Assembly (NCBI GenBank): GCA_965178125.1
Contig: OZ237743.1
Location: 434,001-498,000 of the forward strand
DNA from: Bilabrum cf. latius
Taxonomy: Eukaryota
Direction of reading: 5' to 3'
Length of the DNA: 64,000 bases
Part shown: in pieces, positions 1,837 through 12,507 of the stretch
Layout: every line of letters begins with the position of its first letter
Numbering within the stretch: position 1 is the stretch's first letter
Notes under the pieces: model-generated
Database searches by the model: none
What the model was told of the DNA's origin: nothing
Seen by the model: the letters and a program-made list of their open reading frames with translations, nothing else
Made by a program: the position numbers and the translations under genes

Positions 1837-2946
1837 ATGAGTTCTCCAGACCGATTTTACATTACCGCAAACATACGAAATAACGAAGATACTTTCCAAC
1901 CAGCGACCTATAGCGAAACCCGCAAGTAGCCATTATTAGATAAGGATGTTGGTGATTATACGATGTCAGTATTCCGGTTTTCCATAAGCACCAATTCAAT
2001 ACCTTTATGGGTTCCACACATAGAAACCGATAAAGTGAAAAATCCATCTTCAAATCCTAATCAAACGGTGTATAGAATTAGCATTACAGATGAAAGTGGA
2101 GTACAATTATGGACGGAAAGTATTATATGGAGACCCTAGTTAACAGGGGAAAACCAACCATCTTTTTCCAATCCTATGTAGTTTGTTCCTTATTATTATA
2201 TGTATTCCGTGTAGCATTTTGTTGATTTATTCAACGAAACCCTATAGAACGCTTTATCAGCGGATATTACATCAGTTCCGGTTTTACTATTCAAAGATGG
2301 AAAGTTCAGTTTAGTAGCAAACCCCGATTACGACGAGGAAAACTCAGGACAAAAATTTAAATTAGTGTTGAATGAAGCCCTTAACGAACTGATGACGGGT
2401 TTTCCTATGGAACGAATGGATATCCAAGATGACGACTTATACGCCAGTATTCTATTCAAAACCCTAGGAACCAATGTTTTATTCGATGATGGCTCTTCTG
2501 TTGGAAAATATGAACCTTAGGCATACTTCGAGGGAAACCCAACGGGAGACTACAGATTAATGATGACCTAGGAACGAGGGAGTTTAGTGTAGTTTTAGAT
2601 TTTTCGCGGAATAGTTTTCACATCTTCAAGTCTTCCAGTGAGGAGTGAGGCAATATCCTAGAAATCCGCCTATGGACAATCCACAAATACAGATTAGAAT
2701 TCAGGTTCAGGGACCGAGAGTTTATTAGTGGATATGGACTGTGTATTAGATGACACTGAAACAGTTAATTAGTAGGTTCTTCAATACCAGCCCCATATTC
2801 TCCACGAAATTGATTTTTTAGATACACATTCAGTAGATAGGATTTAGTTTAATCTTTATTGGAAAGATAATTATTCAAATCTAAGACCTCTTTATTTACG
2901 CCACGGAAGTGTGAGTGTGAAGTTTTTAATTTAGAAACGGAAGTGA
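1837..2946 (+). CDS. Virophage minor capsid protein (penton), 369 aa (TAG=Gln)
   Basis: Manual translation: MSSPDRFYITANIRNNEDTFQPATYSETRKQPLLDKDVGDYTMSVFRFSISTNSIPLWVPHI...RGIVFTSSSLPV...NLYWKDNYSNLRPLYLRHGSVSVKFLIQKRK-TGA. These motifs match the virophage penton pattern. Only TAG interrupts the frame, and the gene lies directly upstream of the MCP. Confidence 0.88.
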
Positions 2947-3051
2947 AATTAGTTTTGTATTACTTTTATGAAGAAACGAGTTTGCGTTCTTTTCTAAAGA
3001 ACTGAGTGATAGAATTTTATTCGTTGTATATAATATACAAGGAAAACAAAA

Positions 3052-4821
3052 ATGTCATTGAATACCTTTGCCCTTCAGCCAGTCAAAGTATCACCCGCAA
3101 CACTAGATGTACAACCGAAGCCGTATGAAGTTCAAGAAGGTTATGAGAACCGGACTTTCCGTAAATATAACCCCTCCGGGTCTGCCGGAAACTACAACAG
3201 CGGGGTCAACTGGAATATTAGTATGCCTTCAGGTGTAGGTTTGTGCCGTCGTGCCTATGTCTCGTGCCGATTTTCTATCACCTTTTCCGTGAATAATCAA
3301 ACCGCAGGTGGTCTAGCACCCTTTAGACCAGATTACGATGCTCCACGCTCCTATCCACTTAATCGCTCCATCGCAACATAGACAGTTGGCATTAATAACC
3401 TTCGCTATACCCAGAACAACGGCGAACTAATGGACGCTCTGTCCCATTTACTAGATGATGATGTCCACCGTGTGAATTGCCTTGATAGTGTGTATAGACG
3501 CGATAATGTGCCTTCATACGCGATGATGAGTTAGTCTACGAATAACGCTCTTGCTTCGTATGAGGACGTGCTTTAGGACCAACCAGCCCGAGGAAGTGGA
3601 TTTTACAATTTGTATCAAATGGATAATACTGATGTACCCGCAGGTCAAACTCAAAATCGTGTTCTTGTTTTTGAATGCACTGAGGCGGTATTATGTCCAC
3701 CTTTCCACTACGAAAGTAAATAGGAACAAACGGCTATATACGGAATTCAAACACTCTCCTTAAATATTAATTGGTCTCAACTGAGTAGAACCGTGTGGTC
3801 TCGTATTCCACAATAGGGCTTAACTGCTACCATTTAGTCGGTAGATGTCCAAGAACCAGTCCTATACCTTGAATAGATTACACCTAAAACAGGATTTGTG
3901 CTTCCTAAATAGGTCTCGTATGATATTTTTGAGATGACTTCGTATACCCAAAGTCATAGTCCAACAATTGCCGCAGGTACTACAGCAACTCTTTACAATA
4001 ACAATATTAAGCTTAGTAATTCAGTTCCAAGTCGTTTATTTGTGTTTGCCCGTCGCTCACCTACAACCCTTTCAGTAGATTAGGGAAACACATTCATGGC
4101 AATTGATGGAATTAGTATAGAGATGAATAACCATAGTGGATTACTCGCCGACGCATCGCCACAGCAGTTATGGGACTTATCCAGAAGCAACGGACTTGAA
4201 TAGCAATATAATGAATGGGCTATGCGTAAATTCGGGGATAGGGTGCTATCAGGTGGTCTGTTATGTATTGACCCCGCCAAGGACTTAAGCTTAGATGTAG
4301 ATTAGACGAATGGTAGCAACGGTTCTAATCAATTGTCTATAACCCTACGAGTGAAGAATAATGATGTTGTGGACTACGATAATGTATAGTGTGTGGTGAT
4401 TGGATTATACGAAGGAGTATTAAATTTGATTGATGGGTCTAAGTTCGAGTATTAGCAGGGTGTCATCTCAAGGGCAGACGTTTTGTCCGCCTCTAAACTA
4501 CCCGTTGTATATGAAAGTCAATTATCAGGATTACACGGTCGCGGTCTTGGGAAAAAGATTAGACACGCCTTAAAAAAGTTCGCACACAAAACCGCTGATT
4601 GGGTAAAGAAAGGCAATCTCAAAAAAGTATTAAAGGATGGTAAGTAGGTATTTGACACCGCTAAAATGGTGGGTGAAATGGCTGGTATGGGACGCCAAAG
4701 GAAACCCCGAAAGACTACCAAGAAAGGCAGGGGTATGACTGCTGCCGGTTTAACTGGGGCTTCTCTCACCGGTGGTAAATCTCTTTCTCGCAATCAATTA
4801 CTCGCAATGTTGTAGCAGTGA
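3052..4821 (+). CDS. Virophage major capsid protein (double jelly-roll), 589 aa (TAG=Gln)
   Basis: ATG3052 to TGA4819-4821 with 15 in-frame TAG and no TAA/TGA. Motifs DAPRSYPLNRSI..INN, TEAVLCPPF, YGIQTLSLNINW, VPSRLFVFAR and NNHSGLLADASPQQLWDLSRSNGL resemble Sputnik V20-type MCPs. Basic Gly-rich C-terminal extension. Confidence 0.93.
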
Positions 4822-4876
4822 ATATGAAAAGGGTAAATCGATAAATATTTGTCTTGGTATATAGTATATCAAAACA

Positions 4877-11394: not shown

Positions 11395-11440
11395 TTTTGT
11401 TGTTGTACTATAGAATACGAAAATAATCCTTAAGGTACGA
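11395..11440 (-). promoter_or_regulatory. Bipartite upstream motif TCGTACCTTAAG-N9-CGTATTCTATAGTA (helicase)
   Basis: 12-mer at 11429-11440, ~35 nt upstream of the ATG. Confidence 0.7.
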
Positions 11441-11451
11441 TACGGGGCATC

Positions 11452-12507
11452 TCAATTTTCTATATCCCACTCCAAAATTAAATTAGGAGCAATTTCTTGG
11501 ATTTTATTCTTTGGTTCCCACGTCCAATGTTCTGGTTCTGGAAAATCTTTCCATTCTATTTGATATTCTGTTTCGTTCTCGGATTTTATTTTTTTTGGGA
11601 GAAAGATTGTCTGAGCATCTCGGTTATTGTCCTCATTATCAAAGTCGATAATCTGTAATTCCTCTTTTGGATAAGCCACTAAATCATCCTAATCCACAAC
11701 ATATAAGGGTGGTTGTCTCGGTCTTAATAATACTTTAGTTATCGTTTTGATTTCTGGATTATAGCGTAAATCTGAAGCACGGAAATTTCCGGATAATTTT
11801 TGCTGTAAATTTGTAGCCTTTCTGGGTTCTTCTAATGGTATACGAACTCTTGTACCCTCTTCCAATATATTACAAGCGTCTCCTTTACACTACGTAAAGT
11901 CGAAGTGTTCTGGGGGTAAAGGTGGTTCTTCTATATACTTTTCTAGTTGATATTCATTATAGTTTTCAATGATGTTTGGAAGCATATCCACCCATTCTAC
12001 GCTTTCATTACCTGTATTTAACTCATTAACGTTCTATAGGGTAAATATGGCTTTTCCCAACGTTTTATTTAGGTTTTCCACTAATGCCTGTTGTCGGTGG
12101 CGACCTGCTTTATTTCTTCGTACAAATACATCGGTCTCTTCTAAATATCTTTGTAAAGCGTTAAATTCTTTTCCATTATCTATTTCCAAACGGTGCTGCG
12201 GTTTCTGGACATTACCACGATTGAAAATCTTTTTTGATGCCTTTAATACTTCGTTCTAACGCTTGGTTTTGAGCGGTTCAGCATCGGCCTACTTTGTATG
12301 TAAATCAATAGCAGTTAATGCGTATTTATAATTATTGTCGTGGGGTAATGATAATAAATCCATTTGTACCACTTGGTGAGGTTCTGGTACATTTACGTGG
12401 GGTCGATTTACTCCTTTGGGTCGTTTTGGTCGTTTCATTAAATTTACAATACGACTGTTGGGATAAATGTTTAGGGATTGTAATATTCTTTCAAAGGCGC
12501 TACTCAT
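11452..12507 (-). CDS. Retroviral-type (rve, DDE) integrase with C-terminal chromodomain, 351 aa (TAG=Gln)
   Basis: Intact DDE triad: VQMDLL, LEIDNGKEF, QALVENLNKTL. C-terminal YQIEWKDFPEPEHWTWEP is a chromodomain. Ends at TGA. Confidence 0.93.

What the first reader, a model, noticed from the sequence alone, without database searches (positions are those of the whole stretch)
1837..12507. Hybrid architecture: Sputnik/lake-type capsid module with a Mavirus/Polinton-type replication-integration module
Seen: a plus-strand morphogenesis block converges on a minus-strand block of integrase, SF3 helicase and pPolB at ~7,800. Known: Mavirus has pPolB, SF3 helicase and rve-chromodomain integrase but a divergent capsid; Sputnik has a tyrosine recombinase and no pPolB; rumen virophages have pPolB but no canonical penton. 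Inference: by eye the MCP and penton motifs look Sputnik/YSLV-like rather than Mavirus-like, so this may be a distinct integrating virophage lineage formed by module exchange.
Basis: partly seen in the sequence, partly recalled or inferred. Interest (0 to 1): 0.75.

Follow-up and report, generated by a model that had tools for sequence, protein, structure and literature searches.

The report
Integrated virophage reading TAG as glutamine
This is an intact, multi-copy virophage integrated in a protist genome; its mix of a Sputnik-like shell with mavirus-like copying and integration genes is already known, but it belongs to an apparently unclassified lineage that, like its host, reads the stop codon TAG as glutamine.

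Summary
The gene layout is real. It is part of a 17,486-bp endogenous virophage with 1,015-bp identical terminal inverted repeats and a 5-bp target duplication. At least 17 close copies and a second subtype lie in the host genome. MCP and penton resemble Sputnik rather than mavirus. The pPolB is the exonuclease-less mavirus type. This combination is known: an Omnilimnoviroviridae genome carries a related pPolB and integrase, and published surveys report it across clades.

The core genes are open only if TAG = Gln: 105 in-frame TAG, with TAA and TGA as stops. The host reads TAG the same way, shown by its dyneins, eRF1 and a tRNA(CUA). All 5 related metagenome contigs are recoded; 0 of 135 other virophage loci are. 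The MCPs form a long-stemmed clade that scored below family cut-offs against every reference tested. One copy has swapped in a Polinton-type polymerase. Dependence on a giant virus is inferred, not shown.

The parts
1..13888 (.). Right 13.9 kb of a 17,486-bp endogenous virophage (G000:C9:430403-447888; 3,598 bp lie before the window, holding the left TIR, a 94-aa ORF, the cysteine protease C9:432081-432617 (-) and the packaging ATPase C9:432808-433710 (+))
   Evidence: 37% GC against 53-68% in the rest of the window; boundaries from self-BLAST
42..1223 (+). 393-aa ORF, conserved in the clade, no Pfam match; 13 TAG
1289..1780 (+). 163-aa ORF, no TAG; possibly a minor virion or fibre-type protein (inference)
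1837..2946 (+). Penton (minor capsid protein), Sputnik V18/19-like; 15 TAG
   Evidence: PF21507; PDB 3j26_N E 2.4e-13
3052..4821 (+). [quoted passage not shown]
4877..5494 (+). 205-aa P-loop protein, conserved in the clade (56-59% in relatives); not the packaging ATPase
5521..6801 (+). 426-aa ORF with a His...Asn-Cys-Gln motif suggestive of a permuted papain-like protease (motif reading recalled, not tested); homologues in 7 of 136 other virophage loci
6822..7463 (+). 213-aa ORF with a basic C-terminus, absent from some copies
7505..7777 (+). 90-aa Cys/His-containing ORF, last gene of the plus-strand block
7834..9675 (-). Mavirus-type protein-primed DNA polymerase B, 613 aa: terminal-protein/vOTU region (invariant C124, H217), no full exonuclease domain, motif C reads N-T-D; 5 TAG
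   Evidence: architecture as described in PMC11161782
9733..11394 (-). SF3-type helicase, 553 aa; 10 TAG
   Evidence: PF19263 E 3e-15
11452..12507 (-). rve integrase with C-terminal chromodomain, 351 aa, catalytic D50-D110-E144 intact; 5 TAG
12573..12812 (-). 79-aa ORF, present in only some copies
12874..13888 (.). Right terminal inverted repeat, 1,015 bp, 100% identical to the left one, ending in a run of 7 C
13889..13893 (+). Right copy of the 5-bp target-site duplication TGCCG; an empty paralogous host site shows the sequence once

Best explanation
An intact, recently mobile endogenous virophage (class Maveriviricetes) of an apparently unclassified lineage, written in its host's variant nuclear code: UAG = Gln, UAA and UGA = stop. 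Likely cycle: (1) The rve-chromodomain integrase inserts the linear TIR-bounded genome into host DNA, making 5-bp duplications. The duplications are shown; the enzyme's role is inferred from mavirus. (2) The genome is copied from its ends by an exonuclease-less protein-primed polymerase carrying its own terminal protein and vOTU protease, helped by the SF3 helicase (inferred from fold and motifs). (3) ATPase, protease, penton and MCP build virions, most likely in the factory of a co-infecting giant virus that recognises the shared TATAG-type upstream motif (inferred). (4) The UAG-containing mRNAs are read by the host's tRNA(CUA), since the element has no tRNA. This confines the lineage to hosts with this code, and hides it from standard-code gene calling. 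The mavirus-type replication module is old in this lineage, but exchangeable: one copy carries a Polinton-type polymerase and a different integrase instead.
For: Element: TIRs, TSD and empty site; a second copy 99.99% identical at another site; 16 full-length MCP matches at 87-100%, one split copy and 3 distant loci. All 13 end pairs examined lie in different flanks with a duplication: 12 scored 5 bp, one 4 bp that also fits 5 or 6. dN/dS 0.01-0.18 in all 11 gene pairs. Code in the virus: 105 TAG, 111 CAA, 46 CAG, no in-frame TAA or TGA in 4,616 codons of 15 ORFs, and TAA and TGA swap at orthologous gene ends. Against the C40 subtype, 120 of 122 TAG positions face TAG or CAR. Code in the host: 12 of 28 dynein matches hold stops, all TAG; 10 of 15 TAG at conserved columns face Gln, against 171 Gln among about 5,400 such cells; eRF1 has an in-frame TAG in its NIKS region; one tRNA with anticodon CTA among 26 tRNA loci scanned; no tRNA in any of 14 sources scanned (the window, host copies, four metagenome contigs). 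Relatives: 5 of 5 metagenome loci are broken by TAG and open under TAG=Q, representing two distinct viruses (MCP 49% and about 60%); 0 of 135 other virophage loci gain MCP score by TAG read-through. Trees: MCP clade of 7 has UFBoot 100 and stem 0.74; pPolB clade of 3 has support 1.0 and stem 1.24. Best pPolB fold match is mavirus pPolB, E 1e-45 over the full length; adintovirus/MELD pPolBs score 1e-7 or worse.
Against: Gln at UAG is inferred from alignments; there is no peptide evidence, and the amino-acid identity of the tRNA(CUA) is untested (no paralogue found). 5 of 15 host TAG at conserved columns face other residues. No giant-virus partner was identified. The promoter motif (12 of 15 genes) was chosen after looking at the sequences. 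Whether the two deepest clade members (P0003, P0004) are recoded is unknown, as I held no DNA for them. The metagenome contigs could be endogenous copies rather than free viruses. The MCP trees hold no mavirus, rumen, Dishui-, Burton- or Gulliviroviridae references, and the clade's sister group differs between trees.
Confidence: 0.85

Rival explanations
1. One reading: the lineage arose when a Sputnik-type capsid module acquired a mavirus-type pPolB-helicase-integrase module by exchange. The alternative is that the module was kept from an early virophage ancestor and lost in Sputnik-like clades.
For: Capsid genes are nearer Sputnik and the polymerase nearer mavirus. Related pPolBs and integrases also sit on elements that scored no virophage MCP hit in the DNA held (L122, L124), and are interleaved with virophage ones in the trees. 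The C12 copy shows that such swaps happen.
Against: Inside the clade, capsid and polymerase diverged together (both host subtypes and L100), so any exchange is old. The same module recurs in other non-mavirus virophages. My trees lack mavirus itself and a root, so exchange and retention cannot be told apart.
Confidence: 0.4
2. The element now spreads only as a nuclear, Polinton-like transposon, or as an autonomous virus, without a giant-virus helper.
For: Many near-identical copies at different sites. No partner found.
Against: Capsid, penton and ATPase are under purifying selection. There is no RNA polymerase or capping gene among the 15 ORFs. An AT-rich motif lies just upstream of most genes, as in giant-virus-activated EMALEs. 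All virophage isolates need a giant virus (PMC10120064).
Confidence: 0.15
3. The TAG codons reflect a virus-specific code switch, as in recoded gut phages, with a virus-borne suppressor.
For: TAG makes up 40% of Gln codons in the element but 9% in host dyneins.
Against: No tRNA in any element scanned. The host itself uses TAG in frame and has a tRNA(CUA). The higher share is expected from AT pressure: CAA also exceeds CAG in the element.
Confidence: 0.03
4. The element is a decayed pseudogene array, or a product of sequencing error.
For: Under table 11 all core genes except the 163-aa and 79-aa ORFs look broken. Some other copies do carry insertions or a split helicase.
Against: 105 TAG against 0 TAA/TGA and no frameshift in 15 ORFs. 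The same pattern, at different positions, in viruses 40-50% diverged. dN/dS below 0.2.
Confidence: 0.01

Closest known systems
Mavirus and low-GC EMALEs of Cafeteria burkhardae (Maviroviridae)
   Same: AT-rich TIR-bounded virophage in a GC-rich protist genome; rve integrase, helicase and exonuclease-less TP-vOTU-palm pPolB lacking the first Asp of motif C; short TSDs (PMC8547959, PMC11161782).
   Different: MCP and penton are far from mavirus; genes need TAG=Gln; TCTA occurs upstream of only 6 of 15 genes.
Sputnik/Zamilon group (Sputniviroviridae)
   Same: Nearest solved MCP and penton; 17.5-kb AT-rich genome within the group's size range.
   Different: MCP scores 112-137 bits against three labelled members, below the 245 cut-off. 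It has pPolB and rve rather than the PolA-S3H of sputnikviruses and is integrated in a protist.
Non-mavirus virophages with rve-INT and PolB (Paez-Espino 2019; IMGVR_UViG_3300031251_000083, Omnilimnoviroviridae; L125; L246)
   Same: Same pPolB type (26-33% identical) and rve integrase (33-37%) beside a non-mavirus morphogenesis module.
   Different: Standard code in the loci examined; L125 and L246 MCPs are unrelated to this clade.
Endogenous virophages of Halocafeteria seosinensis (bioRxiv 10.64898/2026.07.28.741278)
   Same: Host-specific MCP clade, many TIR-bounded copies, mobile RVE/pPolB modules shared with PLVs, nested transposons.
   Different: Genes were called with default Prodigal and no recoding is mentioned in the four of five text parts read. 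I could not compare sequences.
UAG=Gln, UAA=stop nuclear codes (Iotanema spirale; Hartmannula, Trochilia, Protocruzia tuzeti)
   Same: Same codon assignment (PMC11687900).
   Different: This host has a 38.4-kb mitochondrial genome with TGA=Trp, a TTAGGG telomere and a TPI-GAPDH fusion. The fusion points to stramenopiles, cercozoans or apusozoans (PMC3527533 abstract), not to a fornicate or ciliate (the last contrast is from general knowledge).

Membership tests
Maveriviricetes (virophages; Roux 2023 criteria) | Virophage-type major capsid protein | tested here: met
   PF21915/PF22031 above cut-off; PDB and fold matches. The ICTV HMMs themselves were not available.
Maveriviricetes (virophages; Roux 2023 criteria) | Virophage-type ATPase and cysteine protease | tested here: met
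   Both lie before the window and match homologues in 107 and 117 of 136 virophage loci.
Maveriviricetes (virophages; Roux 2023 criteria) | Penton; dsDNA genome of 15-45 kb | tested here: met
   PF21507; 17,486 bp.
Maveriviricetes (virophages; Roux 2023 criteria) | Dependence on a giant virus (older phenotypic criterion) | not testable with these tools
   No partner identified.
Maviroviridae | MCP in the mavirus clade (BLAST score >=150 to a member) | tested here: not met
   phmmer 27.6 bits over 89 residues against mavirus MCP, 108.7 bits against Sputnik; fold rank below Qinghai Lake and Sissi virophages. Not the classifier's own BLAST test.
Maviroviridae | Mavirus-type pPolB, helicase and rve integrase (works like mavirus) | tested here: met
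Sputniviroviridae | MCP best BLAST hit to a member >=245 bits | tested here: not met
   123, 112 and 137 bits against the labelled L145, L218 and L228; best score outside the clade among 156 MCPs was 194. The full reference set was not available.
Sputniviroviridae | Placement inside the Sputnik clade of the MCP tree | tested here: inconclusive
   Deep nodes are poorly supported and the sister group changes between three trees.
Omnilimnoviroviridae | MCP best BLAST hit >=300 bits | tested here: not met
   103 bits against the one labelled MCP held, L095.
Ruviroviridae (rumen virophages) | No recognisable virophage penton | tested here: not met
   Penton is recognisable. No rumen MCP was compared.
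Dishui-, Burton-, Gulliviroviridae | MCP score above 310, 350 or 250 bits to a member | tested here: inconclusive
   No labelled member held; no MCP outside the clade exceeded 194 bits.
Polinton / PLV | Polinton- or PLV-type MCP; long exonuclease-bearing pPolB | tested here: not met
   MCP is virophage-type; pPolB is 613 aa without the exonuclease domain. Only the C12 variant has the long pPolB.

The most novel reading that the evidence does not exclude
A family-level virophage lineage, missed by standard-code surveys, has been locked for a long time into a protist group with a UAG=Gln/UAA=stop nuclear code not yet reported outside ciliates and Iotanema (probably a heterotrophic stramenopile). 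Its code names its host range, and it implies a helper giant virus that must avoid TAG as a stop and is probably recoded too: a whole host-giant virus-virophage trio running on a variant code, in which the code acts as a barrier to host switching and to gene exchange with standard-code elements.
Probability: 0.4. Interest if true: 0.78.

Novelty: new variant of a known kind. Interest (0 to 1): 0.6.

Why it matters
Virophage catalogues were built with standard-code gene calling (Prodigal meta in Roux 2023), so recoded lineages drop out: none of the five related contigs is listed in that paper's Table S1. A recoded virophage gives a direct sequence marker for its host, which most metagenomic virophages lack. 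All confirmed giant-virus isolates come from standard-code hosts (PMC13524828); this system predicts a giant virus compatible with UAG=Gln and says where to look. The host appears to add an independent case of UAG being uncoupled from UAA, which is rare in nuclear genomes. The C12 copy catches a polymerase swap (exonuclease-less pPolB plus helicase replaced by an exonuclease-bearing pPolB without helicase) inside one capsid lineage, matching the compensation rule proposed in PMC11161782. The hybrid gene set alone would be of low interest.

Tried and rejected
Codes: table 11 leaves only fragments. A TGA-only stop set (TAA also sense) is rejected, because no TAA occurs in frame although CAA outnumbers CAG, and TAA ends 5 of 15 genes at positions where orthologues end in TAA or TGA.

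Search for a giant-virus capsid gene in G000 (PF04451): no match, but the control rang nowhere, so uninformative. Sequencing runs: no RNA holder listed. Contigs of 3 of 4 runs laid covered 30 of 30 bins, but may be the source data, so I did not count them as independent.

IMG/VR scans with the clade's own MCP and pPolB found no close relative: 1 distant locus from 79 candidates, and 0 from 100. Origin of the tRNA(CUA): no paralogue found; a first pattern hit was not a tRNA. Support values printed after midpoint rooting were displaced; I use the bipartition values. The MCP model had low confidence (pLDDT 63.6), so its fold ranking is secondary evidence. Of 24 IMG/VR ids looked up in Roux Table S1, 7 were listed. 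Four look-ups of earlier scan findings gave nothing relevant. The 426-aa ORF and the other accessory ORFs remain without a tested function.
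Full report
OBSERVATION. The first 13.9 kb of the window is AT-rich (34-42% GC), against 53-68% beyond. Under table 11 it yields only gene fragments. Mapping stops by frame showed long frames broken only by TAG. Pfam confirms a Sputnik-type penton (1837-2946) and MCP (3052-4821) on the plus strand, and pPolB (7834-9675, below cut-off), an SF3-type helicase (9733-11394) and an rve-chromodomain integrase (11452-12507) on the minus strand. The layout is confirmed. The packaging ATPase and the protease lie just before the window.

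THE WHOLE ELEMENT. The window is G000:C9:434001-498000 of a 48.6-Mb, 111-contig genome. The element spans C9:430403-447888: 17,486 bp, 37% GC, with 1,015-bp identical TIRs ending in G/C runs and a 5-bp duplication TGCCG, seen once in an empty paralogous site. A copy on C14 differs at two positions. The MCP gene has 16 full-length matches at 87-100% identity, one split copy, and three distant loci (lower bounds). Of the 41 TIR-end matches, 30 were fetched and 26 formed 13 pairs. All 13 lie in different flanks with a duplication: 12 scored 5 bp and one 4 bp that also fits 5 or 6, allowing terminal runs of 6-8 bases. dN/dS was 0.01-0.18 in all 11 gene pairs tested. Catalytic residues are intact: integrase D50-D110-E144, vOTU C124/H217 and polymerase motifs. 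A second subtype (45% GC, MCP 60% identical) carries the same pPolB-helicase-integrase block.

THE CODE. The 15 ORFs hold 105 TAG, 111 CAA, 46 CAG and no in-frame TAA or TGA in 4,616 codons. Ten end in TGA and five in TAA, and the two swap at orthologous ends. Against the C40 subtype, 120 of 122 TAG positions face TAG or CAR; in more distant relatives Gln remains the commonest partner, at a rate similar to that for CAR codons. The host reads TAG the same way. Of 28 dynein matches, 12 contain stops, all TAG. In 14 dynein frames, 10 of 15 TAG at conserved columns face Gln; the other five face E, E, V, D, R. Three HSP90 matches had no internal stop. eRF1 has an in-frame TAG. One tRNA with anticodon CTA was found among 26 tRNA loci scanned, out of 48 matches and about 780 candidates; its charging is untested. 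No tRNA was found in the window, the host copies scanned or four metagenome contigs, so the virus relies on the host's decoding. The host has a TPI-GAPDH fusion, a 38.4-kb mitochondrial genome and a TTAGGG telomere. [quoted passage not shown] UAG=Gln with UAA as stop is listed for Iotanema and three ciliates (PMC11687900, passages). My inference: an independent case, probably in a heterotrophic stramenopile; the lineage is not established.

RELATIVES. A metagenome scan gave 5 loci from 459 candidates. All 5 are broken by TAG and open under TAG=Q. Four are one virus (MCP about 60% identical), one is distinct (49%). L100 carries the helicase (56%) and pPolB (60%) with the same morphogenesis genes; no integrase lay in the DNA held. 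As a control, 0 of 135 IMG/VR virophage loci with an MCP hit (136 examined) gained score by TAG read-through. None of the five contig ids is in Roux 2023 Table S1, though some are short. A profile search of 1.84 billion representatives gave 3,000 hits, of which the best 150 were listed. Outside the clade, identity to the window MCP stayed under 30% and BLAST score at or below 194 bits (fragments under 430 aa left out). The clade of 7 MCPs has full support and a 0.74-0.83 stem in three trees of 39, 122 and 156 sequences, but its sister group changes. These trees lack mavirus and several families and are unrooted. Whether P0003 and P0004 are recoded is unknown.

THE HYBRID CLAIM. The capsid is nearer Sputnik than mavirus: MCP E 2.8e-30 against 1.1e-5; penton E 2.4e-13 against no hit; a low-confidence fold search agrees. 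The polymerase is mavirus-type: its best fold match is mavirus pPolB, E 1e-45 over the full length, with adintovirus/MELD pPolBs at 1e-7 or worse. It lacks the exonuclease domain and the first Asp of motif C, as described for mavirus (PMC11161782, passages). So the discordance is real, but it is not new. L123, classed as Omnilimnoviroviridae in Roux Table S1, has a related pPolB (33%) and integrase (33%). L125 and L246 carry helicase, integrase and pPolB with non-mavirus capsids; 3 of 136 loci had both pPolB and integrase in the DNA held. Paez-Espino 2019 found rve-INT with PolB in six genomes of distinct clades (PMC6905037, passages). Halocafeteria virophages, unrelated to mavirus, shuffle RVE and pPolB with PLVs (bioRxiv 10.64898/2026.07.28.741278, parts 1-4 of 5; supplements not seen). 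Rumen virophages were called hybrids in 2015 (PMC6723459, passages). Within this clade the pPolBs form their own long-stemmed group (support 1.0), so the module is old here. Exchange is nevertheless visible: the C12 copy keeps the capsid lineage but holds a 1,255-aa exonuclease-type pPolB, a different integrase and no helicase, all TAG-recoded.

HOW IT WORKS. Shown: integration marks, multiple recent insertions, intact genes, purifying selection, and a code shared with the host. Inferred from mavirus and EMALEs (PMC8547959, passages): integrase-made insertions, protein-primed replication from the TIR ends, and particle production in a giant-virus factory. A TATAG/CTATAG-type motif lies within 30 bases upstream of 12 of 15 genes, against about 0.05 expected per window, but I chose the motif after looking. 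No helper virus was found. Because 40% of Gln codons are TAG, the element cannot be expressed in a standard-code cell (inference). A helper virus in this host cannot end genes with TAG and may be recoded; giant-virus MAGs with alternative codes exist, but no isolate from such a host (PMC13524828, passages).

MEMBERSHIP. It meets the genomic criteria for Maveriviricetes (PMC9952930, abstract, parts 2-6 of 10 and Tables S1, S2, S4 in part). It works like mavirus but is not a maviroviruses-family member by MCP. It scores 112-137 bits against three labelled Sputniviroviridae (cut-off 245) and 103 against one Omnilimnoviroviridae (cut-off 300); the full reference set was not available. That paper lists two bicosoecid virophages of 19.5-19.7 kb, one unclassified, whose sequences I did not see; either could belong to this lineage.

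NOVELTY. Six searches for a recoded virophage or for this code in such a host found no report (listings only). The library lacks most subscription journals. Public protein sets already hold full-length translations of these genes, so automatic pipelines have read them under a TAG-sense code. That a virus follows its host's code is expected in principle (general knowledge). Verdict: the architecture is a known kind; the recoded, apparently unclassified lineage and its host code are a new variant. Interest 0.6.

Noticed in passing
G000:C12:911685-938700 (L116-L118): Copy of the same capsid lineage (penton 98%, MCP pieces 88-92%) with a 1,255-aa exonuclease-type pPolB (26 TAG; 1 match in G000), a different rve-chromodomain integrase (28%), no helicase, and GC-rich insertions in the MCP and TIRs.
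   Followed up: yes
G000:C6:367312-385659 (L109-L111); similar loci on C15 and C9:355-359k: Second subtype (45% GC, MCP 60% identical, 5-bp TSD) closer to metagenome contig L100 than to the window's element. The C6 copy sits inside another AT-rich recoded element with its own rve integrase and a DUF285 repeat gene.
   Followed up: partly
L119 (G000:C35:455983-456282): Host eRF1 has an in-frame TAG and reads TAVNIKS and YMCDSHF where TASNIKS and YxCDNKF are usual (usual forms recalled); candidate changes for loss of UAG recognition.
   Followed up: no
L035/L036 (C12) and L039/L040 (C4): Two copies inserted in opposite orientation, one base apart, in the same host repeat sequence: a possible insertion hot spot.
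   Followed up: no
window 13889-55000 and C9 upstream: Host tandem arrays of multi-kb units. Upstream copies hold a 1,481-aa subtilase-looking ORF with in-frame TAG and a roughly 470-aa ORF (labels by eye). The virophage inserted into one such unit.
   Followed up: no
window 7778-7834: 55 bases between the 90-aa ORF and pPolB are skipped in contigs of two runs and absent from the C40 and C41 copies, where the gene ends are 1 and 57 bases apart respectively in the listings; a copy-specific difference at the convergence point.
   Followed up: no
L126 (IMGVR_UViG_3300010885_077566): A mavirus-type pPolB fragment lies on a 31-kb contig whose other end of the held DNA encodes a protein starting like an NCLDV major capsid protein (recalled motif).
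   Followed up: no
G000:C111 (L264-L267): 38.4-kb mitochondrial genome, TGA=Trp, only 10 tRNAs found by ARAGORN.
   Followed up: partly
P0027, P0029: Two database MCP fragments of this clade end exactly before the invariant Gln384, where the window has TAG; probably cut by standard-code gene calling. P0029 is closest to the deep member P0003 (67%).
   Followed up: partly
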